This document shows, one piece after another, positions 1,045-51,511 of a stretch of 64,000 nucleotides of DNA. This stretch comes from Naegleria gruberi (Eukaryota). Location: NCBI GenBank assembly GCA_000004985.1, contig GG738899.1. One strand, given 5' to 3'. A program made the translations under genes and the position numbers. Every line of letters starts with the position of its first letter. Within the stretch, counting starts at the first letter, position 1. The notes beneath the pieces are model-generated. The model ran no database searches. It was given only the letters and a program-made list of their open reading frames with translations, and had not been told where the DNA came from.

Positions 1045-2172
1045 ATGTCGCAAGAATATTCAGCGATCGTGCTAGATAATGGCTCTTGCTCCATCAAAGC
1101 AGGTTTTTCAGGATGTGAGAATCCACAAGTAGTTTTTCCATCACTCATTGCTTCTCCTTTAAAATCCAAAGAATCTGAAAATATCAAAGAAATATACCTT
1201 GTGGGAGATGAAGCTAAAATTGACAGTAGAAAGAATGTTATGGTCAGATATCCAATAGAACATGGAGTAGTGACGAATTGGGAGGGGATGGAACAGATTT
1301 GGCGTCATGTTTTTAGTCAATTACAGGTGGATTGTGAAAATCATCCTGTTTTATTGACTCAACCTCCTTGTAATCCAAAACAAAATAGAGAAAAGATGAC
1401 TGAAATAATGTTCGAAACATTTAGAATACCATCCATGTATGTTTCTATTCCTGCTGTATTGTCCTTGTTTGCAACTGGGAGGACAACTGGAATAGTTTTA
1501 GATTCTGGAGATGGTGCGACGAATATTGTTCCAATTTTTGAATCACATGCTTTAGAATATGCTGTTAGGAGATTGGATTGGGCAGGTCGTGATTTGGATT
1601 ATTATATGTCTAGAATTCTAAGTGAAAGAGGGTTCTCATTCTTTACACGAGAGGAAATGGACATTGTGAGGGAAATTAAGGAAAAACTGTGTTATGTTGC
1701 ATTGGATTTTGATAAAGAAATGGAAAATACATCAAATAGCTTGGATGTTGATTATGAATTACCAGATGGTAACATTCTCACGATAGGAAATGAAAGGTTT
1801 CGATGCCCAGAAGTGTTTTTCAAACCACACTTAATAGGAATTGAAGAACAAGGCATTCATGAGGTGATAATTAATTCAATTGGAAAGTGTGATGTGGATA
1901 TAGGACATTTGAACTTGTATGGGAATGTAGTTCTTTCAGGAGGATCCACAATGTTTACAGGAATTGGAAAGAGGCTACAAAAGGAATTATCTGAACTAGC
2001 TCCTTACTCTATGAAAATTTCGGTTGTTGATTCCCTAGGGTTTGATAGGAAATTTTTGTCATGGATTGGAGGTAGTATCCTATCATCAATGACTGCATTT
2101 CAATCTGATTGGATAGTATCAAGAGAATATAAAGAAGTTGGAAGTAGCATCGTTCACAGAAAGTGTTTCTAA
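1045..2172 (+). CDS. divergent actin / actin-like protein (375 aa, single exon)
   Basis: True ATG. Full-length colinear match to actin landmarks (DNGSG-like N-terminus, [75 protein letters not shown] at the C-terminus). By eye about 60% identical to conventional actin. Confidence 0.85.
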
Positions 2173-19530: not shown

Positions 19531-20925
19531 ATGATAAGTGAATCGAGAGGAAGAGCACAATTTTTCATTGGCATATTGCAGTGGCCAGTTCTAGTGTGGG
19601 CAATTTTGAATTTAGCTACAGGAATACTGGGCATGATTGTGTATGGTGCATTTACAGCCAGTTATGGACCCGTCTATATTGTGAATCAATTTGTTGGCTT
19701 GTGGTTGTGTGTCTTATTGACCTTTTTTAGTGCACAAACAGTGTATATTGAATTGAAGCCAGGCGATTCGAGTGAGCGAAGAATTCTCAGAGTGATTACT
19801 TTGGTGGTGAACATTCTGTATTTTGGTGTCATCCTGGTTGGTTCATTCATTCTATTTGTGTTATATTCGAGAGCTGGAACTCGTCCTGATGCTATTGTCT
19901 GGACAATTTTGATTATGATTATTTGTTTGCTGAATGTTATTGCTTTGATTTGCAGATGGTATTCAAGTGTTGGAGCTGGAAAGGAATTCATTCCAGACGA
20001 ATCAAAATGTTTTCAACTCATTAAGGAAAAGTCTGCTGGTGCATCTGGTGTTAGCATGTGTTTGTACATTACTGCCATTGTGGTGAATGTATTGTTGAGA
20101 TTCATCTTTTTGATTTTCCTTGGATTGTTGATTAGTGGCAGTTCTGCTGCTTCTAATATTAAGAATTATCCAATGAAGGGAAAACTAATTTCAGTTCCAT
20201 TGAACGATGGTTCAGGAAGAAGTCAAAACATTCACTATTTGTGCGAGGGTCCAACTGAGGGAAATTCATTCACATTCCTCTTTGAAGGAGATTTCACACA
20301 TGGTTATGCTGATTATTATGATATTCAAAGATATTTGACAGCTCTTGGTCGTCGTTCTTGCATTTATGATAAACCAGGCTTAGGATATTCTGACTATTTG
20401 TACAAGGACCAAAAGGATGAATCTACATTTTACTACAACTTTTTAACGAGTATTGGAGAAAAGACTCCATATGTCATGGTTGGCTGGGGAGGTGGTGGAC
20501 ATATCATTTACAAATTTGCTTTGGAACATCCTGAACTAGTCAAGTCGCTCACTTTCCTAGATGTTTTCCCACCTGGAATTGAATTTACCTCAATGAAGGA
20601 TTTGAAAAATTGGAGTCAAGAGCAATTTAATACGTACAAGAACCAAGAATTGAGAGGAAGAAGAACCTTATTTGGAATTATCAATGGATTGGCAGTTCCG
20701 TGGGGACTCATGTCTATCTTTGTTGGATCATCATCCAATACCAGCAATGCAGATGAAATTACTTTCTGGATGAGCACTGAAAAGACATGGATTACTCAAT
20801 CATCAGTTCTCGATACAGCATATGCTGACACTGGATCCTATCTGAAACAAAATCTCACATCCACCATAAGTGTCAATTTGGTTGTTACCAAGCATGATGA
20901 TAATTGGGTCATTAAGAATAATTAG
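19531..20925 (+). CDS. membrane-anchored alpha/beta-hydrolase-fold protein, epoxide-hydrolase/dehalogenase-like (464 aa)
   Basis: True ATG. About 200 aa of N-terminal hydrophobic helices, then HYLCEGP...FLFEGDFTHGY..., and VMVGWGGGGHI, which resembles the HGxP / nucleophile-elbow context of alpha/beta hydrolases. Confidence 0.55.
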   Translation: MISESRGRAQFFIGILQWPVLVWAILNLATGILGMIVYGAFTASYGPVYIVNQFVGLWLCVLLTFFSAQTVYIELKPGDSSERRILRVITLVVNILYFGVILVGSFILFVLYSRAGTRPDAIVWTILIMIICLLNVIALICRWYSSVGAGKEFIPDESKCFQLIKEKSAGASGVSMCLYITAIVVNVLLRFIFLIFLGLLISGSSAASNIKNYPMKGKLISVPLNDGSGRSQNIHYLCEGPTEGNSFTFLFEGDFTHGYADYYDIQRYLTALGRRSCIYDKPGLGYSDYLYKDQKDESTFYYNFLTSIGEKTPYVMVGWGGGGHIIYKFALEHPELVKSLTFLDVFPPGIEFTSMKDLKNWSQEQFNTYKNQELRGRRTLFGIINGLAVPWGLMSIFVGSSSNTSNADEITFWMSTEKTWITQSSVLDTAYADTGSYLKQNLTSTISVNLVVTKHDDNWVIKNN

Positions 20926-21518: not shown

Positions 21519-22904
21519 ATGCCAAGGATTGTGGATTCTCATCAAATACTTTTGAGTTTGATCTTGTTGGCCCTAATATTTCACATAGTAACTTGTTCAT
21601 CATCACAGCGGACACAGGATCATGAAGTGAAACGATGCATCAATTACTCACCCATCTTCTTCAATACTAAGAATATCGATGTTGCAGTGGCTTCCGAAGA
21701 AAATCACTACAAGATCCTTCTTCCCTATTTGAAACAGCATGGTGTAAATTGTATAAGATTGTACTTTACTGATTGGAGGAGGTATCATGCCGATTTCTTC
21801 AAAGTTGTGAACGAGTTACACATGAAGGTTATGATTACATTCTGGCAATACACTGATTCGACTCCAAATCTTGCAGATTCCAAGGAGAGACAAAAGACGC
21901 ATGATGATGCAGTCTTTTTGTTCAAGACAATTTCGACAGAACCTTCAGTTTTTATGATTTTCTATGGAAATGAATTGGATTTGATCTATCCCTATCAAAT
22001 TCCACTAGTTTTCGTTGCATTTCAGGAATTTATAGATTTGCAACGACAGGTAATTCCAGATCCAACGAAGAGAAAATCACTTTCTCTTCCATTATCTGAT
22101 TCTGGTTTTAATTTGAAATATGTTGCTGATTATGATTGGGTTCAAGCAGATTATAACACTTTTAACATTTATAGAGGTTCGACATTTCTTGACTTTGTGG
22201 AATCGTACAAGATGGTCAATCCGAGCAAACCTCTCATTATAGCCGAAACTGGTGCTTCTTCATACTATCAGTTTCCACATCAAATACCAAAACCTTATTA
22301 TGTTTACAATGCAAGTGATCCAAGTATTCAATTGGGAGAACGATATCAAGCCATGAATCATCAAAGAGTCTTGATGGAATATATTGCCTCTTCGGTGGTC
22401 AACCCAGGTTTATTGGATGTTTTATGTTTATTCGAAGCAACAGATGAATATTGGAAAACTTCAAATGATCTCAATCCATATTGTCAGTCAAGGGATGGTC
22501 ATTTAGCTTCAAGACAGAATACCTGCGGATATCAAAATGTTAATTACAAGGACAAGATGATTCATGAGGCATTTCTGGGTTTGATGCGTCAGGATTATTC
22601 GAAAGATGAATTTTCACTCATTCCAAAACCTTCATTCAATGTGATGAGTTTTTACTATAGAAGTATGGAGAATATCAGTCAGTGGTCATGTGAAATATCT
22701 CAGAGTGGCTGGAATTCAGACATTTTGAACACGAGAATAGTGCCAGATATTGTGTATAATGTTCCATACGAAACCTTACGATTATTTGAAACTGTATTTC
22801 AAACCAAGATTGGAGAGAAGATATTCACTTGTAAATTTAAAGGAAAAATGGAAATATTACAAGCCCTTCCTCTTAAAATGAATCTTTACAATTACCATAT
22901 ATAG
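21519..22904 (+). CDS. secreted TIM-barrel glycoside-hydrolase-like protein (461 aa), GH17/GH72-like, beta-glucan-active candidate
   Basis: True ATG followed by a signal peptide / anchor (LLSLILLALIFHIVTC). ...ILLPYLKQHGVNCIRLY..., a candidate catalytic acid in FYGNELD and a nucleophile in IIAETGASS, spaced like retaining TIM-barrel glucanases or glucanosyltransferases. May instead be the 5' exon of the downstream GT48 gene (see findings). Confidence 0.5.
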   Translation: MPRIVDSHQILLSLILLALIFHIVTCSSSQRTQDHEVKRCINYSPIFFNTKNIDVAVASEENHYKILLPYLKQHGVNCIRLYFTDWRRYHADFFKVVNELHMKVMITFWQYTDSTPNLADSKERQKTHDDAVFLFKTISTEPSVFMIFYGNELDLIYPYQIPLVFVAFQEFIDLQRQVIPDPTKRKSLSLPLSDSGFNLKYVADYDWVQADYNTFNIYRGSTFLDFVESYKMVNPSKPLIIAETGASSYYQFPHQIPKPYYVYNASDPSIQLGERYQAMNHQRVLMEYIASSVVNPGLLDVLCLFEATDEYWKTSNDLNPYCQSRDGHLASRQNTCGYQNVNYKDKMIHEAFLGLMRQDYSKDEFSLIPKPSFNVMSFYYRSMENISQWSCEISQSGWNSDILNTRIVPDIVYNVPYETLRLFETVFQTKIGEKIFTCKFKGKMEILQALPLKMNLYNYHI

Positions 22905-22939
22905 ATTTTACTGCTTTGGATGATTTTTGGAATATTTTC

Positions 22940-25900
22940 ATGCTGGTTTTATTTGTATCTTTTATAACCTATATAATTATCTATCAGGTATTAGATAGAT
23001 TGGGATTGAGTTGTAAAATTTGCTGTTCTTTCTGTAGATGCAGTGGTGGACTTTTCATTTCAGAAATTGATGGAGACTTCGATTGGAAACCAAATGAATC
23101 TCTATTAGAAAGGATACAAATACAGAATGTACTCTTTCTTGCTTACAATTTTACAGAATATCTCAAGAATATGGATCATACATTTTCTGCTCCGCAATTA
23201 TTCCAAAAATTTTACAAGAATGAAATTAATGTTGAAGGTTTAAATCAATTTTGTAGATATGAAGGCCCAAAAAGATCAACATTTGTAAGAATACTTGAAT
23301 GGTTGCTTCCAGATCCAAAAAGCTTGTTTCCCTATATGGAAACTAAATATATTAGCAACTTAAATTCAATTCCCATGACAACTTGTAATTGGATAAGACA
23401 TTTAATTTGCCATTTCAATATTTATCAGATTTTCCTCAGATTGTTGCTATTTACTATCCTTCTTAACGGAACTCCACTTATTAATTTATTAATTTACATT
23501 GACTTTTATTTTAGTTTAGGATATAAGGCAATTCAATTAATTTACATTCTCTCTTCATTTATTCCAAGAAATGGACAAAGTTTTATTGGAATGATTATAA
23601 GATTTATTAGATTCTTCGGATGGATTCAAATTGTGGAAACCATTGCCATGATTTTAGTCATTTCATTTTTTAATCATGAAAACGAAACTGTGTTACTCTA
23701 TGAATTTAATGGAGAAAGATATAATTTTATTCGATTCTTCAACTATGACGGTTTTGATATCGTGTATTCTCACAATTCTGTTATCATTCTTGTAGTCACT
23801 GTTGCTTTTGAGATTGTGAAAGAGTTTACAAAATTTGTACTTTTTTGGAAAACTAGTTTAGAAGAAAGAGGAAACAAGGTTTTGAAAATTCTTTACAATA
23901 TTTCCTTTTTCCAAACCTATCTCTTTATTCATGTACTAGGATCTGTGCTGTGGTTCAGTAGATTATTTAGTGGACTATTATCAATTAATTCGATTTGTAT
24001 TGCAAATATTGGACAAGATGAAACTATGTGTGAAATTGTGATTTTACCTTTCGTATTTTGTTTTGGGTTTATGTGCACGATTGCTATTTCTTCGTATATC
24101 TATACTTTGCTTATTATAACCATTTCGAATTTAATAACTGTTTTCGAGGGAATTAGAATTGGAAAATCGAAACCTAAAAAGGTTAAGAAACCAAAAACAA
24201 AATCTATTCAGTTGACGGAAATGGCCATAGAACGCTTGATTTTGGATGAGACACAACCACAGCAGCAAGATCACATTTTGAAAGTTTGTTATCCATCTGA
24301 TTCTCAACCAACGATTGAAAATTTAGTCAACCTGGACACACAAATTGAAAAGAGTTTTCAAGATTTTTCTGCAGCAGAAAGAGATTATTTGCAATGTATT
24401 TACAAATCTGGTCTCCAGAGATTAATTCCCTTCCAAAAGCACAAGAAAACCACGCTTGACATTGTTGTGGTTCTTTGTGCTGAACAAGTTTATTCCAAAG
24501 ATGATGAAAGTAGAACGAAATTTAAATGGATATCAGATAGATTCAAACTTGATACACTCAATAGAACACAAGATGAAATAAGAAAGATCATGTCTTTAAA
24601 GGAGCAAACCATTTACAAAACTGTGAAAGGTCTTGCGGATTTCAAGAAGGGAATGGAAGATTACTATTCTATTTTGGATTGCAATGAGGAAGACAGAATT
24701 TCAGTGAATTATTATCTTTGTTTACAAAAATATCATGGGCTAGATGAAAACTACTTCCCAAAGATCGAAGAGGACATGTCAGAAATCCAGAAAAAGAGAA
24801 TTCAATCAGAAATTGACTTTACCAACGAAATTAATGAATTATGTATGGAATTTCCATTCATTAGAAGAATATATGAAAAGCAAATATCTGATCAGTTTAT
24901 CAAGATTGAACATCTTGACAGCTATTTCAACAACTGCCAAATACTAGACTCTGTCAAACTTCAAAGGAAAATCAATTGTAAATTTTATGGAGAAGGTAAA
25001 TCCATGAACCAACTGAACAGTGCCATGTTCCTCAAGGGAAAATACATGCTCTCCCTCGACTCCAACATGGACGCTTACTATTTCGAAGGTATCAAATTCC
25101 CATGCTTGATGCAAGAAGTCATGAACTCGAAAAGTCACATTTTTGGAATGAGAACTCACACCTACACTGCTTTTACTTCTCAGGTTGGAAAGAACATGGC
25201 CTGTGCTGAGCATGTCTTTGTGGCCACATGTTACAAAGCCATGTGTCTGCTCGGCAGTAGATTGCACTATGGAAATGCCGATATTTTAGATAGAGAATTC
25301 TTTATTGAGAAGGGTTTATTTGCAGATGCGGATCGATATCTGAATTTGAGTGAGGATGTGTTTCTTGGAAAGAGATGTCTTAAATTTGGAGGAATTATTC
25401 GATACTCTGAGGGTGTTACGTTTGGTAAGGGAAGAGAAACTAACCTGAAGGAATCTGCTGGGTTCTATACAAAGATTGCTGGAGGTGCTGCCATGCAGTC
25501 GAGTTCAAGTATCGAATACGAATTGAATAGTTCATTGCCTCTTTGTATGTTGATGCCACTCTAGTGTTGGATTCTTCTCCTTGCATTTATTTATTGACAT
25601 TTCGATCATTCTAGCTCCTATTTTATACGTCTTGTTGAGCATCTTTGGGGTTTCGTATACTACATTGGATACTTTGAATTCATCATTTGCAAAAATTTGG
25701 GTTCTTCCATTCTACCTTGTCACTTTACTTCCACTCGTGCTGGAAAGCTTAGTTCAGGGCTACAGCTATGCTAACTGGGTTGATTACCTTCTCTCTTTCC
25801 CATTCTTTGCTTTCATTGACAGATTAATGTCATACAGTTATTTGACAGGAACATTTTTAGAGAAGGTGACCTATGTATCAACCGCCAGAGAAACTGGCCA

Positions 25901-26714
25901 CGCTCCAGCCAATGTTCATGACCTGATGCACAGCTACTACTTTACTACATTCAGAAGTTGTCTATTCCAATTGGTTACCTTCTTAATTTTCATTCAAGTT
26001 ATGGGAATTGATAAGATTTTATACATTGGCTTACCGATACTCAATTGGGCAAGTTGTTTGGTAGCTCCATTCCTATTCGAAAACCTAAAAATTTCTCATT
26101 TACATGATTGGCTAGATATTAAGAATGATTTACTCAAACAATGGAATGAATTCTATGCCGAATCATTTTATGAAGGAAATGTCAAGAAAAATAAGCATTT
26201 TCTATTGAAATGGTTCAATTATGGAAGATTGAGGATGCTGAAGTATGTTTATCCAATTATATTCCAAATGGCATTGCTGTATCCTATTTGCTATGTGTCT
26301 GTTTTGACTATTGCATCGGATTTCCAAGAAAAGACAAAGACAAATGCCTATTTTTGGTTTGTTATGACTTCTCCTTTCCAATTCATTTTGGGAATTACCT
26401 TATCTGTTAGATTATTGAAATCCAAACACAAAATATTTGGTTTCTTAATGTTGGTCAGTGAGGCAATCTTATTCTTTTTTGAATCCATTAATGGTGGTGG
26501 TTTCATTACGCTGTCAAAAGTCTTTTTAGGAATCCACAGTCTTTTCATTATCATGTCAGTGTTTTACATTTTGGTTTTGTTTATGGATTTGATTTGGAAA
26601 TCTGGAAGATTGTACCTTGAAGCTGAATTCTTTATTGTGAAACTCATAACCTATCCAGCTCTATTATTTGCCGTTGGAGTTCAAGTCATTTCGAGAGGAG
26701 TCCACAATATGTAA
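22940..26714 (+). CDS. compact GT48 1,3-beta-glucan (callose) synthase, FKS-like. Exon 22940 (first in-frame ATG; frame open from 22877) to 25544, intron 25545-25614, exon 25615-26714
   Basis: N-terminal ~6-7 TM helices, then a cytosolic domain with FKS catalytic-region signatures (RLHYGNADILD, LNLSEDVFLGKR...GG.IRYSE, FGKGRE, FYTKIAGGAAMQ). The 70-nt intron GTATGT...CTAG has length 1 mod 3. It joins the catalytic domain in frame to a C-terminal multi-TM bundle containing YVSTARETGHAP (compare FKS YISTGRGFATSRIPF). The downstream track ORF at 25581 starts at TTG and is this exon. Confidence 0.7.
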
Positions 26715-26850: not shown

Positions 26851-27951
26851 TTAAACCATTTGATGAGTCATTGGAATGGTAGATGTGGAAAATTGTGGCA
26901 TGAATTGATCTACAAGTATTACTCCTCTATTTCTGAAAAATTCCCTCATATAAGTAGCTCCACTCATCACATCATCTGGAGTCAACTCGAGTGGCTTTGA
27001 AATATTCACCTTCTTTCCATCCTTACTAATCAAAGAAAGGCAAAAATCTGGTTTCTTTCCATCAGAAATCTTGTGAGCTCTAATATCATGAATTTGATCG
27101 TATGGAATTGAATAGGTTGAGAAAATGAAATGTTCTCTCAAATATCTAGCTCTACTTGTCATTCTTACTTCTCTCTTTTCATCATCAAATTCAATAATTG
27201 TAATCTTTTCATAATAAACAATCAAAAATAGAGCAATTGGAGCTGTTACAATGTAAATACCTGCCAAAATAGCCAAACTCAACACCAAAATAATGCACAA
27301 TATGACCATCAATATGAGAACTCCCTCTCCATCACAATTCCAACCGCTACCTGAACAACAATCTGTACAGGAACAGCAGCCACCACAACAACCTCCACAG
27401 CAACCACCTCTAGATCTGGAAGTGGCAGCTACAGCAATTGCAGCTTTTTGATTGGATGTCAAATTTGTTCCATTACCATTGGTTGACAAATCTTCAGATG
27501 GAAGCATTGTAATGTGTGAAATTTGGTTTTTCAAACTGCAAACTCTGAAACAACCAAGAGTTGCACAAAACAAGTAAGTGAGCATGCTGTCTTGATTTTG
27601 CAAGATTAATTCATGTAGAGAGGATGACTTTTGACTGATGAGATTTTGGAAAGTTGTGGTTGTCAACTTTTGCTTACCATTCATCATCACATTATTTGCA
27701 GCAACTGGTGGCATTGTCGGTAAAGGTTGTTGCTGTTGTTGAATCATGACAGGTGGTTGATAGATTTGTTGTTGAACATTTGGAATTGTTTGTGGAGAAT
27801 AGTTTACATTCGGTTGTTGATTAGGATATTGTTGTTGAGAATAGTTTACAATTGGTTGATGAAAATTCGGATTATAGACTTTTTCAACATGTTGATAGGA
27901 AGCAGTGGTTGGCTCGACAAATGGTTTGCTGTTTGGGTCTTGTTGTTGCAT
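26851..27951 (-). CDS. P/Q-rich protein with a (GGCC)n cysteine cluster adjacent to a TM helix, plus a C-terminal globular domain (366 aa)
   Basis: True ATG. N-terminal Q/P/N-rich low complexity with PPxY-like motifs. RGGCCGGCCGGCCSCTDCCSGSGWNCDG, then a hydrophobic helix (LILMVILCIILVLSLAILAGIYIV). No family call. Confidence 0.45.
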   Translation of the reverse strand: MQQQDPNSKPFVEPTTASYQHVEKVYNPNFHQPIVNYSQQQYPNQQPNVNYSPQTIPNVQQQIYQPPVMIQQQQQPLPTMPPVAANNVMMNGKQKLTTTTFQNLISQKSSSLHELILQNQDSMLTYLFCATLGCFRVCSLKNQISHITMLPSEDLSTNGNGTNLTSNQKAAIAVAATSRSRGGCCGGCCGGCCSCTDCCSGSGWNCDGEGVLILMVILCIILVLSLAILAGIYIVTAPIALFLIVYYEKITIIEFDDEKREVRMTSRARYLREHFIFSTYSIPYDQIHDIRAHKISDGKKPDFCLSLISKDGKKVNISKPLELTPDDVMSGATYMREFFRNRGVILVDQFMPQFSTSTIPMTHQMV

Positions 27952-46564: not shown

Positions 46565-48952
46565 TCATGACTCTGAAGGTTGTTTTCTAATATGTGTAAG
46601 TATTATTGAACTGGAAATATTAAAACTTACCAAATCTCTGGTTATTAATTGATAGAAAATCAATCCTAATGAAAATATATCCGAAGCAAAAGATAATTCC
46701 TTATCGTTGTGTCTGCAATGATATTCAGGAATAAATACATTATATAACAATTGATTAGGTATGCCTTTTTCTAATTCTGAAACATCCATGACAGAGTCCA
46801 ATACTGAAATCATAATTTCCATACTCTGCCATGAGGAGAGATGGAAACGAATGTTTTCACAACATAAACCCAAGTGAACTTTCTTTCTCTCATGAATATG
46901 AACTACTGCATCACACAGTTGAGCCATCGCATTCTTGAGAAGAGAGGAAACAATCTTTTCCTCTGTGAGCTTATTTGATTTACAAAAGTCCAATAAGTTT
47001 CCTCCTTTCAAATGAGTAGTAATAATGTAAAAACTCCTCTCATCTGTAAATTCCTCTACCTTTTGAACAATATGTTCATGATGGAACTGATATTGCAAGA
47101 GCTGAATTTGTTAGTTTACAATTAAAATATAACAACTTACATTTTTACAAAATACTCCAAAGTGTAAAAACATGAATGTGGCAACTTCCTTGTCATTATT
47201 CTTGATATCAGCACAAAGGAAACTTATAATACCAGATTCTAAACCAGCAATGTCAATCTTTCTTATCATTTTGTATCTTCCATTGAGAAGAACAGACGAG
47301 TATCTCTTCTTATCATCTTTAGGAACAGCCTCACTTGTAGGATTGGTAACTGGAACTGGAAGTAATATTTGTTCTAATTGTTTCTCCAATGTGAAAAATC
47401 CATTATCTCTAAACGATTCTAATATTCTTACGACTTGATAAGCTTGAGGTCTGAGATAGGCCTTTCTTTGAAGCATGGAAATTACCAGTCTTTGTACGAG
47501 TGGAGGGAATCCATTTCTCTCCAATGTCTTACAAAGTCTGAAATGGGTCGCCGCTTGATTGTTTCTAATTGCTTCATGCATTAGGAATCTTTGACCGTTG
47601 ATTGTCAAATCTCTTTCTAGAGTTAATAACTCATAGAATACACATCCCAACGAAAATATATCACCTGACCTGTCAATTTTAAGATTAGAATCCATATATT
47701 CAGGAGCCATTGTTAATGGTGTTCCCTTTCTACTGACACTTGCTCTTGGATCCCATCTTGTCAACAAACCGAAATCTGAAATCTTACAGAATAGTTTACC
47801 ATTCTTTTCGGAATCAAGAAGAATATTCTCAGATTTCAAATCTCTATAGATGAAATTTTGGTAATGGAGCTGGTCTATTCCTGTTGAAATGTCAATTGCA
47901 AACGAAAGCCACTCTGGGTAATGTAAATAATTTGGATCGTTTCTATACTGATTCAAATGATCAAAAAGAGTTCCGTGAGGGATAAAGTTCATTACTACAT
48001 TGAGTCCATAATCATTGAACATTTCTCCTTTTCTCTCTACGAATTTCTTTACAATTGTTACCAAGTTCTTGTGATCAGATATTTTCATAACTAGATCCAA
48101 ATGTCTATTCATTTCCTTGATTTTATCCTGATCCATAACTTCAGTACATCGTTTAAGGGCTACAAATGAATGAGTAGTTCTGTCAAAACATTTAAAAACT
48201 GCTCCTTCAGTTCCTTCTCCCATCTTTTTCAAAATGATATAGTGGTTTCCATAGACGACCATATTTGGAGGTTTCCACTTTGGTCCATCAGTAGAAAGGC
48301 AATTCATGATAAGATGCTTTAGCAAAAGCAACCCCTTGTTTTCTATTGAAAGCTTGTTCAATTCCCTAATAAGAGTAATTCCAAAATTCCACATGTGTGT
48401 ACTGATAAAGTTTGACACTTGTTTTTCTGAAATTCTAATATTGTGTTACTAGTAAATCCAATGCTATCTTACTTACCTCTTGTTAAGAGTATTTGGTCCA
48501 GAAAATCCCTCCTTTTGGAAAAATTTTGAAATAGATTCCTCATGTGAACTCAAAATAGCTGATAATAAAATGTGCTGCTCAGAGTCTACATTGCAGAATG
48601 ATTTGGTGAATGCTTCCTTCTTTGATAATAGTTTGACAGCTAAACAAATTGTGATGGCTATAAAGACAGTTTCTGCTTTTGAAACATAATTGAAAGGAGT
48701 GTTCTTTAGCATACGGAACACGTCCTTCCTATTTTCCTTCACATTAGTTAGATTTAGAATTTGGAAGCAGTAAGATCTCATCTCTTCAAATGTTGTTGGA
48801 ATTACATTTTGTACAACGTTGAGGGTGTTTACAATATCTGTATCAGTATATTTTGATTGATCCGCAATATAATAGTACAACTCTGTTATCCATACTGTCA
48901 TGTTATTCTCAAAACAAAATTGAATTTCCTTTGAAAGAACGTGGGGCTTCAT
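46565..48952 (-). CDS. protein kinase with an N-terminal unknown domain, a catalytic kinase domain and a C-terminal pseudokinase-like domain; 3 exons (48477-48952, 47141-48434, 46565-47101), ~768 aa
   Basis: ATG at 48952. Donor GTAAGT at 48476 and acceptor TATTAG ending at 48435 (42-nt intron, phase 2). It continues into the kinase domain (GEGTEGAVFKC, VALKR, YRDLKSENILL, ISDFGL, TPLTMAPE). Donor GTAAGT at 47140 and acceptor ATTCAG ending at 47102 (39-nt intron containing AACTAAC) continues into a degenerate kinase-like domain (HLGLCCENIRFH in place of HRDLKPEN). The track ORFs start at GTG and TTG. Confidence 0.7.
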
Positions 48953-49086
48953 GTTGCTGAAATGATTTTCTCTGAATTGTTCCTTATCCTCCTCAATGCT
49001 GTTGCTTGATGTGATGGATTTGTAAAGGTCGGAAATGTGGTGATAAATCTCAAAATTTTCTCTCTTGGAAAGTTCCTCATTAGAGG

Positions 49087-51511
49087 TCAGTAAGGCATTT
49101 TCTTTGTCTTTTCATGGGTTAATAGATGCAAGAACATGAAACACTTACCAAAATTTTTAGAAATAATGTGATTGGTTACGAATAGTTTGTTAAAAGAATC
49201 AATACCCAAAAATTCCGAAAGAGTTTTTAAATCTCTTTCAGCACTCTCAGGAATTTGCTTATTGTAAAACATTGATTCATAATCTGAAGAATTGAACTCT
49301 CCAACCAATAGCTTATAAGCTGGCTGGCTGTTAATAAAACTGATAAATAAAGATGTCATTATGATATTTGAAGGTACTGTTACATAGTTTGCCTCTGGAT
49401 TATGAAGACCAGAAGGTAAATTTCCACTATGGGAAGCCATCATTTCGAAAAATGTTGTGCCCCCAATAGTTGTCTTTGAGAAATGAGACATGGATTTCTC
49501 AACTGGTTCAGGAGGGAGCTCCTTCGTAGAGTCAAAATAGTGACGACATCCAAAGAGCAGAGCCTTTGGTACGACAACAAGCTCTCCAGATTTGATCTTC
49601 TTCTTGTCGAGTGTGAAAATGTTTAAACTCTCTGGTGTTGAAATGTTTGCAGTCTCGGTAAAATGCATGAATGCATTGTGGGCAATTTGGAACCTTTCAT
49701 TGAAATACTTGTATACCCCAACAGCTTTGGTCAAGCCACAACTGTACAAAAATCTACCATGGGCTAAATAAATATTAAGTTATAATTATGCAACAATACC
49801 AAATACATACAATTCTTGAATATGGTATCTTCATCCACGGAAACAATGTTATGCTCGATTAATATTTGTTTTGGGATGTAAAAATCAGACGAGCCTCCTG
49901 TTTGATAAACTTTACCGTTCTGCGTAAGGAAAAAACATTCTCCAAATTTACTGCATTTCAAATCCTCAATTTCTATTCCATTTTCCTTAAAGAACGTTAT
50001 TTCCTTAGGTCCATTAAAGGTTCTAGCCAATCCGACTCCGAATATTCCACTCATATTATTTCCCAATCCCCAAATGGTTTGTCTGTCCTTGGCTAAACAC
50101 ATCAATGTTAAACCATCATCATCACTGCATTTTTTTCAATACGTAAGCAAAACTAATTGATGATTCAAGAAACAAACCTGCATGAAATTTTGATAATTTC
50201 CTTTCCAAACAAACTGGTCAGTACTCTAATACATAAGTTACTGGCAACTACTGCATTTTGAGGTTCTGTCAAGGTAGCCAAAAAAGGTGTCAATGTTTCT
50301 GTATCACCAGCGACAAGGACTGTTCCCTCAGCAGTCAAGAAGAAAACACTGTCATCTGTATTTACAGCATCCACAATTCCACTTGTTAAATGTGTAATAC
50401 TGTCGAGATGGAGTGAATTTGGTTTGGTATCGTAAGGCCCCTTGACGAAAATATTCAAACCACAAGCATATGCATTGTAGTCATCGGTGAGAAAAACTGT
50501 GGACCTCTTGAGAATACATATTTTTCTTACTTTTCTATTCTTGAAATTGTAACGGAGAAGAGATGGCACAACAGTGAGAGGCATATTGTGACCTAACCCC
50601 AATCTATAATCATCATTACAACCAGCAACCCAAATATGTTGATCTATTTCAAATTATAAATTCATCATTTTTTAAAAAATTGATAACCTACCACTAACGA
50701 AAAAAGAAGTTTCGTATTGTGAAAATACAGAATGAAATTTAGAAATATCCAAAGTATCTGAGTATTCCTTCTTCAATTGTACTCTGACAGTTGAGAAATC
50801 TTCAACATTTGGCAGCAAATGTTGTCCACAAACTTCATCACTTGATTTGGAAGAAACACAAAATGAATATCTCGATTGATTCAACAATTCATCCAACAAG
50901 ACATTTCTATCCTTATTTTGTTCATTGTCAATATTTAAATTAATTTTCTTTGCATTCTCTCTCACAATTTCAAACATGTAAATAACATCAGATTTAACAA
51001 ATGCCTTTTCTTCTTCCAATGCTGCTTCCTCTTCTTCCTTGTTAACAACAGTACCAATACTCGTATTGGCAGCATCACTAATGGACGCTGACAATGATGA
51101 TGAATTGGAAATTATCAGAGTTTTCCTGTTGAGTCCTCTCTTTAAATGTACAGGTTCGAATCGGTGAGCATTCGATCGGTTTCTATTCGGTCTCGAGAAG
51201 AAATCATCAAATTCCATCAAGTAATCATTTGCTGATTTTTCCTCTTCTTTTTCTTCCAATATTGTTATTGGTGGTGATGAAGCTATTGTTGTAGATGAAG
51301 ATGGAGAGGTAGGTTGTGATGGAAATGAAGAGGGTGATGAAGAAGGTGAAACTGATGATTAGACCAATATTTTGTTTTTCAAATGTTTCATATTGTTAGG
51401 AACAGTGCTTGAAGATGGTGAATCTGGTCGAAACAATCCATCATCACCCAAATCTGTAGTGTCATCGATGGCACTTATTTCCGAGTCCATAGAGGCTAAC
51501 ATGCCTTTCAT
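49087..51511 (-). CDS. RCC1-repeat + BTB-domain protein (RCBTB/IBtk-like), multi-exon
   Basis: Resolved 3' exons are 50178-50643, 49811-50124 and 49087-49763; the upstream exon ends at 50692 and the 5' end is unresolved (candidate ATG at 51511). Junctions: GTAGGT(50691)..ATAG(50644), which restores WVAGCNDDYRLGLGHN (an RCC1 motif); GTTTGT(50177)..CAG(50125); GTATGT(49810)..TAG(49764). The C-terminal exon has a BTB-like segment (GELVVVPKALLFGCRHYF). Confidence 0.55.

What the first reader, a model, noticed from the sequence alone, without database searches (positions are those of the whole stretch)
21519..26714. Compact GT48 beta-1,3-glucan synthase sits directly downstream of, and may be spliced to, a secreted glucan-hydrolase-like domain
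The 461-aa ORF at 21519-22904 has a signal peptide and TIM-barrel glycosidase landmarks (LKQHGVNCIRLY, FYGNELD, IIAETGASS), spaced like GH17/GH72 beta-1,3-glucan enzymes. It is followed 12 nt later, on the same strand, by an FKS-like GT48 synthase. That synthase has no ATG until 22940, and its frame is open back to 22877. A candidate intron GTAAAT(22831)...TATATAG(22904) of 74 nt (2 mod 3) would fuse the two frames exactly, giving ...KIGEKIFT-Y-FTALDDFWNIF.... A second, better-supported intron (GTATGT 25545 ... CTAG 25614, 70 nt, 1 mod 3) joins the catalytic domain to the C-terminal TM bundle. Either reading places a glucan-remodelling enzyme next to a glucan synthase, whether fused or co-located. 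The synthase also lacks the long N-terminal cytosolic domain of fungal and plant FKS/CalS (about 1250 aa versus 1800-1900 aa).
Basis: partly seen in the sequence, partly recalled or inferred. Interest (0 to 1): 0.72.

Follow-up and report, generated by a model that had tools for sequence, protein, structure and literature searches.

The report
Glucan synthase fused to glucanase-like ectodomain
In the amoeba Naegleria gruberi, two reading frames now annotated separately are most likely one three-exon gene for a membrane enzyme that makes beta-1,3-glucan inside the cell and carries, on the outside, its own glucan-cutting or glucan-joining domain, a design shared with free-living relatives of trypanosomes and apparently unstudied.

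Summary
The window is Naegleria gruberi; the 461-aa ORF is annotated as a stand-alone "predicted protein" (XP_002672215). Removing two short GT-AG introns (22831-22904, 74 nt; 25545-25614, 70 nt) gives one clean 1683-aa product.

The predicted product, in order:
- signal peptide
- clan GH-A (beta/alpha)8 domain with both catalytic Glu (E152, E243)
- one TM helix
- 139-aa cytosolic linker
- 6-TM cluster
- GT48 catalytic domain (PF02364, 2e-31)
- C-terminal TM bundle

The N-domain has no direct Pfam or PDB sequence hit. An exhaustive phmmer search finds a family whose profile and AlphaFold model are closest to GH157 and GH158 endo-beta-1,3-glucanases and GH72 glucanosyltransferases.

The decisive evidence is that at least 11 proteins carry the same two domains in the same order with the same single TM helix between them. 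They include diplonemid and prokinetoplastid transcriptome ORFs and Bodo saltans "glucan synthase-like protein". Intron 2 is confirmed by homology across the junction. Intron 1 is inferred from architecture, a 35-nt stop-to-ATG gap and an in-frame join; no RNA evidence is available, and its GTAAAT donor is atypical.

Verdict: a real fusion (about 0.77), a compact heterolobosean variant of an uncharacterised Discoba synthase-glycosidase fusion. Moderately interesting.

The parts
21519..22830 (+). Exon 1: signal peptide plus the whole GH-A ectodomain (residues 1-437 and the first base of codon 438).
   Evidence: ORF list. The spliced CDS is clean. It is identical to the first 437 residues of the annotated N. 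gruberi XP_002672215.
21519..21596 (+). Predicted cleavable signal peptide (about residues 1-26, MPRIVDSHQILLSLILLALIFHIVTC).
   Evidence: Hydropathy peak at residues 10-28. All fused homologues also start with a hydrophobic leader. No dedicated signal-peptide predictor was available.
21624..22808 (+). Clan GH-A (beta/alpha)8 glycosidase-like domain, closest to GH157, GH72 and GH158 (residues about 36-430).
21972..21974 (+). Glu152 in GNELD, the predicted catalytic acid/base (the clan GH-A 'NE' motif).
   Evidence: N and E are nearly invariant in alignment A2. Coordinates.
22245..22247 (+). Glu243 in IIAETG, the predicted catalytic nucleophile.
   Evidence: This column is invariant in A2. It aligns with E224 of LaGH157, the residue mutated in PDB entry 9g4n.
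22831..22904 (+). Proposed intron 1: 74 nt, GTAAAT...ATATAG, 25% GC. Its last three bases, TAG, are also the stop codon of the annotated 461-aa ORF.
   Evidence: It is the only frame-compatible GT/GC-AG intron shorter than 125 nt. Its size and AT content match the local inferred introns. It is inferred, not shown by RNA.
22905..25544 (+). Exon 2: TM0, cytosolic linker, 6-TM cluster and GT48 catalytic domain (residues 438-1318, partly).
22928..22993 (+). TM0 (residues 446-467, WNIFMLVLFVSFITYIIIYQVL). This single helix links the outside GH domain to the cytosolic side. The ATG at 22940 lies inside it.
   Evidence: Hydropathy. A single TM helix follows the GH domain in every fused homologue.
23402..24163 (+). 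N-terminal TM cluster (residues about 604-857), read as 6 helices.
   Evidence: Hydropathy and loop charges follow the positive-inside rule. The helix count is an inference.
24170..25543 (+). Cytosolic GT48 catalytic domain (residues about 860-1317). Motifs: GEGKS.NQ (1133), LDSNMD (1155), LHYGNAD (1224), LSEDVF (1252), GKGRE (1278).
   Evidence: PF02364 at 2e-31. phmmer to FKS1 structure 7xe4 at 1.3e-15 with these motifs aligned. Coordinates.
25545..25614 (+). Intron 2: 70 nt, GTATGT...TTCTAG.
   Evidence: The unspliced frame stops at 25564. The spliced product aligns without a gap to FKS1 LPVDRFL. It continues colinearly into the homologues' TM region.
25615..26714 (+). Exon 3: C-terminal TM bundle (residues 1319-1683) and TAA stop.

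Best explanation
One gene of three exons (21519-22830, 22905-25544, 25615-26714) encodes a 1683-aa polytopic membrane protein.

A cleaved signal peptide puts a clan GH-A (beta/alpha)8 domain outside the membrane, at the cell surface or in a vacuole or vesicle lumen. Both catalytic glutamates are intact (E152, E243). Its closest relatives are GH157 and GH158 endo-beta-1,3-glucanases and GH72 beta-1,3-glucanosyltransferases. A single helix, TM0, returns the chain to the cytosol. A short 139-aa linker and six helices follow. Next comes a cytosolic GT48 catalytic domain, then a C-terminal helix bundle.

By analogy with FKS1, the GT48 part polymerises UDP-glucose into beta-1,3-glucan and threads it through its own membrane channel. 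The tethered outside domain then cuts, trims or transglycosylates the emerging chain. Possible outcomes are release, length control, branching or attachment to a cyst-wall or granule matrix.

Shown: the domains, their order, the conserved catalytic motifs, intron 2, and the conservation of the fused design in other Discoba.

Inferred: splicing of intron 1, the topology, the substrate of the GH domain, and the functional coupling.
For: 1. Clean splice product. The CDS is 5052 nt, encodes 1683 aa and has no internal stop.

2. Fused architecture elsewhere. P0003 (Apiculatamorpha spiralis transcriptome), P0013 (Hpha Trinity contig), P0046 (Flectonema neradi transcriptome), P0057 (PhM_4 transcriptome), P0058 (Bodo saltans 'glucan synthase-like protein, putative') and the metagenomic or unnamed assembly contigs P0009, P0014, P0059, P0060, P0061 and P0063 all carry PF03198 plus PF02364. 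Each matches the Naegleria product twice, colinearly.

3. Shared plan. All of them have a leader, the GH domain and one TM helix, then a non-TM stretch, a TM cluster, the GT48 domain and a further TM cluster. In Naegleria that single TM helix is encoded at the very start of exon 2.

4. Spacing. The stop-to-ATG gap would be 35 nt. The four same-strand stop-to-ATG gaps read from ORF coordinates in this window are 287-594 nt.

5. Intron 1 features. It is the only short frame-compatible intron. It is 74 nt and 25% GC, like local inferred introns of 42-77 nt and 20-32% GC.

6. Loop charges give N-out and GT-in with 1+6 helices.

8. GT48 identity. PF02364 at 2e-31 and the FKS1 alignment with conserved motifs.

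9. Intron 2. Homology crosses or continues past the junction.
Against: - No transcript or peptide evidence for the 22830/22905 junction could be obtained.
- The public annotation calls the 461-aa ORF a separate protein.
- The intron 1 donor is GTAAAT. All ten other short introns I inferred in this window, intron 2 included, have G at +5, although that set was picked partly for strong donors.
- An ATG at 22940 could start a stand-alone GT48 whose first helix acts as a signal anchor.
- ORF1 alone gives no significant Pfam or PDB sequence hit, so its GH assignment is transitive.
- The GT48 is very divergent: about 107-110 bits to PF02364, against 320-350 bits for the euglenozoan fusions. Two motif positions also differ from FKS1 (Q to M in DANQD; TGRGF to TARET), so activity is not certain.
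- My hydropathy reading leaves room for 7 rather than 6 helices in the first cluster, which would break the topology argument.
Confidence: 0.77

Rival explanations
1. Two separate adjacent genes, as currently annotated for the first ORF. One is a secreted soluble 461-aa GH-A enzyme ending at TAG 22904. The other is an independent compact GT48 synthase translated from ATG 22940, with its first helix acting as a signal anchor. On this reading an ancestral fusion underwent gene fission in the Naegleria lineage.
For: XP_002672215 is annotated as a 461-aa protein. There is an in-frame stop and a downstream ATG. The intron 1 donor lacks the +5 G seen in the other local inferred introns. The co-location would still make functional sense.
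Against: Only 35 nt would separate the stop from the ATG, against 287-594 nt for other same-strand neighbours, leaving no room for a terminator and a promoter. The ATG sits inside the helix that in all homologues is the linker helix of the fused protein. A frame-restoring, AT-rich GT-AG interval of typical size lies exactly where it is needed.
Confidence: 0.15
2. Both products are made. Intron 1 is spliced inefficiently or in a regulated way. Because its 3' AG is part of the TAG stop, retention yields a soluble secreted 461-aa glycosidase, and splicing yields the membrane-tethered synthase fusion. This is a sub-case of the main explanation.
For: The stop codon at 22902-22904 coincides with the acceptor AG. 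The GTAAAT donor is weak compared with the local GTAAGT, GTATGT and GTAGGT donors. The retained-intron ORF is what the annotators called.
Against: This is purely sequence-based speculation. A stop inside a retained intron is expected by chance in AT-rich introns. No expression data are available.
Confidence: 0.2
3. A decaying or mis-assembled locus: the apparent stop and frame change between 22877 and 22904 come from a frameshift, a sequencing error or early pseudogenisation of a formerly continuous ORF, not from an intron.
For: The two frames overlap as open frames for 25 nt (22877-22901), so a single indel there would also fuse them. The GT48 part is unusually divergent.
Against: Exons of 1312, 2640 and 1100 nt are free of stops in a 34% GC genome. 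All invariant GH residues and the GT48 motifs are retained. A second, homology-confirmed intron of the same size class lies in the same gene.
Confidence: 0.05

Closest known systems
Euglenozoan 'glucan synthase-like protein' fusions (Bodo saltans P0058, 2557 aa; diplonemid and prokinetoplastid transcriptome ORFs P0003, P0013, P0046, P0057)
   Same: The order of parts is the same: leader, GH72/GH157-like domain, single TM helix, cytosolic stretch, TM cluster, GT48 domain, TM cluster. The Naegleria product matches both domains colinearly.
   Different: These proteins are 2250-3480 aa, with about 400 aa or more between TM0 and the first TM cluster and a longer GT domain. They are 42-45% identical to one another. 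Naegleria is only about 25-30% identical in the matched parts, is 1683 aa long, and is split by two introns. None of these proteins appears in any paper I could search.
Fungal FKS1/GSC2 and plant callose synthases (GT48; PDB 7xe4, 7yuy)
   Same: The catalytic domain matches PF02364. The motifs GxGKSxNQ, DxNxD, LHYGxxD, LxEDxxxG and GKGR(D/E) are aligned. A cytosolic GT domain sits between two TM clusters.
   Different: FKS1 starts with a roughly 450-aa cytosolic domain (from my own knowledge of the structure papers). PF14288 gave no hit on the Naegleria product. Instead there is a signal peptide, an outside glycosidase domain and an extra helix. The GT domain is shorter, and the score to PF02364 is only about 110 bits.
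GH157 (LaGH157, 9fz9) and GH158 (BuGH158, 6pal) endo-beta-1,3-glucanases; GH72 Gas2/Gel4 beta-1,3-glucanosyltransferases
   Same: All share the clan GH-A (beta/alpha)8 fold, the NE acid/base and the TE(F/T)G nucleophile. The D(E/G)WWKG motif is shared with LaGH157. These are the best profile and fold matches.
   Different: Sequence identity is 13-16%. There is no direct single-sequence hit. No Cys-rich CBM43 module or GPI signal as in GH72 was seen (that GH72 carries these is from my own knowledge). Here the domain is anchored by a TM helix to a synthase. Whether it hydrolyses or transglycosylates is unknown.
Synthase plus glycosidase pairings in other systems: bacterial NdvB (GH17 domain with a GT2 domain), cellulose synthase with BcsZ or KORRIGAN, yeast Fks1 with Gas1
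   Same: The same functional logic applies: a processive membrane synthase works together with an extracytoplasmic enzyme that cuts or transfers the same polymer. This comparison comes from my own knowledge and was not tested here.
   Different: Those are separate polypeptides or use a GT2 synthase. Here a GT48 synthase and the glycosidase would be one chain.

Membership tests
GT48 beta-1,3-glucan synthase (FKS/CalS/GSL) | Significant match to the Glucan_synthase model PF02364, above the gathering score. | tested here: met
   109.5 bits against a cut-off of 37.2, E 2e-31; 106.9 bits on the spliced product. Only profile positions 113-480 of 819 are covered.
GT48 beta-1,3-glucan synthase (FKS/CalS/GSL) | Conserved catalytic-site motifs of the cytosolic GT domain. 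| tested here: met
   The alignment to FKS1 7xe4 residues 1054-1292 keeps GEGKSxNQ, DxNxD, LHYGxxD, LSEDxxxG and GKGRE. Q to M in DANQD and TGRGF to TARET are deviations.
GT48 beta-1,3-glucan synthase (FKS/CalS/GSL) | GT domain flanked by two multi-helix membrane clusters. | tested here: met
   Hydropathy clusters lie at 604-857 and 1313-1677, around a 460-aa soluble domain.
GT48 beta-1,3-glucan synthase (FKS/CalS/GSL) | Long N-terminal cytosolic domain (FKS1_dom1, PF14288) as in fungal and plant enzymes. | tested here: not met
   No PF14288 hit. The N-terminus is a signal peptide plus an ectodomain. This feature is typical of fungal and plant members but is not listed for the euglenozoan fusions either.
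GT48 beta-1,3-glucan synthase (FKS/CalS/GSL) | UDP-glucose-dependent synthesis of beta-1,3-glucan. | not testable with these tools
   Needs a membrane enzyme assay or detection of the product in Naegleria.
GH72 glucanosyltransferase (Gas/Gel/Phr) | Match to PF03198 at or above the gathering score. | tested here: not met
   The Naegleria domain gives no PF03198 hit even at E<=1. Its homologues hit PF03198 at 25-55 bits, near the 25.9 cut-off.
GH72 glucanosyltransferase (Gas/Gel/Phr) | Two catalytic glutamates on strands 4 and 7 of a (beta/alpha)8 barrel. | tested here: met
GH72 glucanosyltransferase (Gas/Gel/Phr) | C-terminal GPI anchor, with or without a Cys-rich CBM43 module. | tested here: not met
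   The domain is followed by a TM helix and the synthase. No extra Pfam module was found.
GH157 endo-beta-1,3-glucanase | Closest sequence-profile and structural relationship to the founding member LaGH157. | tested here: inconclusive
Discoba GH-like + GT48 fused 'glucan synthase-like' proteins | One polypeptide with leader, GH-A domain, single TM helix and GT48, in that order. | tested here: inconclusive
   All elements are present in the right order on one strand, and one 74-nt in-frame GT-AG interval joins them. The continuity of the mRNA was not observed.

The most novel reading that the evidence does not exclude
The covalent fusion of an outside beta-1,3-glucan-acting GH-A domain to a GT48 synthase is an ancestral Discoba invention, shared by Heterolobosea, kinetoplastids and diplonemids, and possibly by the euglenid paramylon synthases. 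In it the tethered domain is mechanistically required: it releases, sizes or transglycosylates each nascent chain as it leaves the channel. In Naegleria a weak intron whose acceptor doubles as a stop codon would let the cell switch between a soluble secreted glucanase and the tethered synthase. That would give a natural single-chain model of how glucan synthesis is coupled to remodelling.
Probability: 0.15. Interest if true: 0.78.

Novelty: new variant of a known kind. Interest (0 to 1): 0.6.

Why it matters
In fungi and plants it is still debated how newly made beta-1,3-glucan passes from the synthase to the enzymes that cut, extend and cross-link it. A natural protein with both activities on one chain, on opposite sides of the membrane, would be a direct handle on that coupling.

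GH72-type domains are usually treated as fungal (from my own knowledge), so this also widens their known range.

It corrects a gene model in the reference Naegleria genome. It also predicts that Naegleria makes beta-1,3-glucan, possibly in the cyst wall, which would bear on the biology and drug sensitivity of the pathogenic relative N. fowleri. I did not test whether N. fowleri has an orthologue.

The same architecture occurs in diplonemids and bodonids. Whether the euglenid paramylon synthase has this domain could not be tested here.

Tried and rejected
- Direct Pfam and PDB sequence searches of ORF1 gave nothing useful. The only PDB hit was a spurious photolyase match at E 0.2.
- A single-sequence AlphaFold model was useless, with pLDDT 35. 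It was redone with an alignment.
- The word-indexed homologue search with the whole fused protein returned one GT48 hit only. The same search with the domain alignment returned 12 hits, so it cannot serve as a census.
- Exact look-ups for ORF1 and for the EF2-like ORF on contigs found nothing.
- Exact look-ups of four candidate gene models (fused 1683 aa; ATG22940 plus intron 2, 1234 aa; ATG22940 unspliced, 874 aa; exon 3 from its first ATG, 295 aa) were not in the collection. How the GT48 part is annotated publicly therefore remains unknown.
- A metagenome scan for close relatives of the GT domain found nothing, and so did a scan for the exact spliced-junction DNA.
- The afdb50 fold library was unavailable.
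- Ten literature searches found no paper describing a GH72/GH157-GT48 fusion, a Naegleria GT48, or domain details of EgGSL2. The Tanaka 2017 paper is not held.
- Longer alternative introns (125-296 nt) were rejected because they would delete conserved GH residues or TM0.

Full report
**What the window is.** The window is AT-rich (about 34% GC) and eukaryotic. It has mostly uninterrupted ORFs: an actin-like protein, an EF2-like GTPase, a RhoGAP, cyclases, F-box proteins and others. The 461-aa ORF of the finding is identical to Naegleria gruberi XP_002672215.1 / EFC39471.1 / D2VUL2, 'predicted protein NAEGRDRAFT_52380'. So the organism is N. gruberi, and the public annotation treats this ORF as a gene of its own.

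**Checking the observation.**
- ORF 21519-22904 (461 aa) is followed, 12 nt after its TAG stop (first listed start TTG 22916), by an 882-aa stop-free frame on the same strand. That frame is open from 22877, and its first ATG is at 22940. A third frame, 25581-26714, follows.
- Removing 22831-22904 (GTAAAT...ATATAG, 74 nt) and 25545-25614 (GTATGT...TTCTAG, 70 nt) gives a 5052-nt CDS.

**The synthase part.** ORF2 matches Pfam Glucan_synthase PF02364 at 2e-31, 109.5 bits against a cut-off of 37.2. phmmer against solved structures finds yeast FKS1 (7xe4) at 1.3e-15. The aligned motifs are:

| Naegleria | FKS1 |
|---|---|
| GEGKSMNQ | GDGKSDNQ |
| LDSNMD | IDANQD |
| LHYGNAD | LHYGHPD |
| LNLSEDVFLG | LHLNEDIYAG |
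| GKGRE | GKGRD |

That alignment runs straight across the intron 2 junction (...LNSSLPL-S-PILYVLL against ...LGTQLPVDRFLTFYY) with no gap. A profile built from six homologues continues colinearly into exon 3, residues 1323-1475. Single phmmer domains against P0003, P0057 and P0058 span residues about 1080-1450. Without splicing, the frame ends at 25564 and the protein would lack its C-terminal helix bundle. Intron 2 is therefore established by homology.

The synthase is compact. The GT48 part is 1246 aa, it has no FKS1_dom1 (PF14288) hit, and it scores far lower against PF02364 than the euglenozoan proteins do (320-350 bits).

**The upstream ORF.** On its own it gives no Pfam hit and no meaningful PDB sequence hit. 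A single-sequence AlphaFold model was useless, with pLDDT 35.

An exhaustive phmmer search of 1.84 billion representative proteins found 42 relatives at E<=1e-3. Those relatives hit PF03198 (GH72 glucanosyltransferase) and the GH2 TIM-barrel model.

In a 26-sequence alignment, Naegleria keeps every invariant residue: N77, R80, Y218, E243, G245, D309, W312 and K313 in full-length numbering. It also keeps the nearly invariant N151-E152. These are the 'NE' acid/base and the 'TE.G' nucleophile typical of clan GH-A.

The profile of this alignment hits, in the PDB:

| Target | Family | E-value |
|---|---|---|
| LaGH157 (9fz9) | GH157 | 3.4e-26 |
| Gel4 | GH72 | 6e-22 |
| GH158 | GH158 | 5e-20 |
| Gas2 | GH72 | 4e-18 |
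| many | GH2 | weaker |

E243 aligns with LaGH157 E224, the residue mutated in entry 9g4n.

So the domain is a clan GH-A glycosidase or transglycosylase. Apart from GH2, its nearest characterised relatives all act on beta-1,3-glucan. 'GH157/GH72-like' is a better label than GH17. I do not file it in GH72, because the domain itself fails the Pfam model and lacks the GH72 C-terminal features.

**Is it one protein?** The decisive evidence is comparative. Among the relatives of the N-domain, several are very long and carry PF02364 downstream:
- P0003, 2488 aa, Apiculatamorpha spiralis transcriptome
- P0013, 3476 aa, 'Hpha' Trinity transcript
- P0046, 2843 aa, Flectonema neradi transcriptome
- P0009 and P0014, from metagenomes

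A further search added P0057 (PhM_4 transcriptome), P0059 to P0063, and P0058, which is annotated 'glucan synthase-like protein, putative [Bodo saltans]'. All have PF03198 plus PF02364 precomputed.

The spliced Naegleria product matches each of them twice, colinearly: residues about 40-390, and again about 1050-1470.

They share a precise plan: a hydrophobic leader, the GH domain, exactly one TM helix right after it, a non-TM stretch, a TM cluster, the GT domain and another TM cluster. In Naegleria that linker helix (residues 446-467) is the first thing encoded by exon 2, and the ATG at 22940 lies inside it.

My reading of hydropathy and loop charges gives one plus six helices, with K/R-rich loops on the GT side and acidic, sequon-bearing loops on the GH side. 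This places the GH domain outside and the GT domain in the cytosol. It is an inference without a dedicated predictor.

Two further points favour one gene:
- The 35 nt between the stop and the ATG is about a tenth of the other same-strand spacers in the window, which are 287-594 nt.
- 22831-22904 is the only frame-compatible GT/GC-AG interval shorter than 125 nt. Its length (74 nt) and GC content (25%) match the other short introns I could infer locally, which are 42-77 nt and 20-32% GC.

**What speaks against it.**
- There is no RNA or peptide evidence. Exact look-ups and two metagenome scans found nothing.
- The intron 1 donor is GTAAAT, whereas all ten other locally inferred introns have G at +5. 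That set was partly selected for good donors.
- An ancestral fusion could have split in this lineage.

I put the single-gene reading at about 0.77 and two genes at about 0.15.

One curiosity: the TAG that ends the annotated ORF is also the acceptor AG. A retained intron would therefore produce a soluble secreted enzyme, and a spliced one the tethered fusion. Together with the weak donor, this makes regulated retention conceivable but untested.

**Mechanism.** By analogy with FKS1 (established knowledge from the 7xe4 and 7yuy structure papers), the cytosolic GT48 domain would polymerise UDP-glucose and pass the chain through its membrane channel. The outside GH-A domain is held within one helix of that channel. 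It would act on the emerging beta-1,3-glucan, either as an endo-glucanase (as in GH157 and GH158) for release or length control, or as a transglycosylase (as in GH72) for elongation, branching or wall attachment.

The pairing echoes Fks1 with Gas1 in yeast, cellulose synthase with BcsZ or KORRIGAN, and the GH17-GT2 protein NdvB. These comparisons come from my own knowledge and were not tested here. The same GH-like domain is also found fused to a SKN1/KRE6 domain in P0022, which again links it to beta-glucan assembly. The biological product in Naegleria, whether cyst wall or something else, is unknown.

**Novelty.** GT48 synthases and clan GH-A beta-1,3-glucan enzymes are well known. The fused architecture is visible in public data (the Bodo saltans annotation). 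However, none of my ten literature searches found any description of it, of a Naegleria GT48, or of such a domain on the Euglena paramylon synthase.

The Naegleria protein is a compact, intron-split and currently mis-annotated variant in a second Discoba lineage. I rate it a new variant of a known kind, with interest about 0.6. It is a neat and probably unstudied single-chain coupling of glucan synthesis and processing. It is not a new principle, and its key junction is still unproven.

Noticed in passing
window 22902-22904: The TAG stop of the annotated 461-aa ORF is also the last three bases (..TAG) of proposed intron 1. Intron retention would give a soluble secreted glycosidase, and splicing would give the membrane-tethered fusion.
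   Followed up: partly
P0022 (1648 aa), P0019 (1189 aa), P0016 and P0064 (not in the window): The same GH-A-like domain occurs in other contexts. It is fused to a SKN1/KRE6 beta-glucan-synthesis domain (P0022), duplicated in tandem (P0019), and placed in bacterial-type multidomain proteins with CARDB, beta-helix and fn3 modules.
   Followed up: partly
window 1045-2172 (+): A 375-aa intron-less actin-family ORF (PF00022, 7e-121). From my own reading of the translation, its sequence looks clearly divergent from conventional actin, so it may be an actin-related or divergent actin paralogue.
   Followed up: no
window 26851-27951 (-): A 366-aa ORF convergent with the synthase gene, 137 nt from its stop. 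It has a Q/P-rich N-terminus, a striking Cys run (GGCCGGCCGGCCSCTDCCSGSG) next to a hydrophobic helix, and no Pfam hit.
   Followed up: no
window 2172/2218 and 34277/34282: The convergent ORF ends are only 46 nt and 5 nt apart, far tighter than the same-strand stop-to-ATG spacers of 287-594 nt. This suggests overlapping 3' UTRs.
   Followed up: no
window 46568-51358 (-) and 54834-55979 (-): Runs of ATG-less ORFs can be joined by very short GTAAGT/GTATGT/GTAGGT...YAG introns of 42-55 nt. These are multi-exon genes in an otherwise intron-poor region, and I used them as the local intron reference set.
   Followed up: partly
window 58001-60000: A GC-skew spike (0.27) and the highest GC content in the window (0.379) lie over the NF-YA-like ORF 58230-59819 (-).
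   Followed up: no
window 19531-20925 (+): The upstream neighbour is a multi-TM N-terminus fused to an alpha/beta-hydrolase fold. The PF00561 match is just below its cut-off (24 bits against 25.8). No link to the glucan gene was tested.
   Followed up: no
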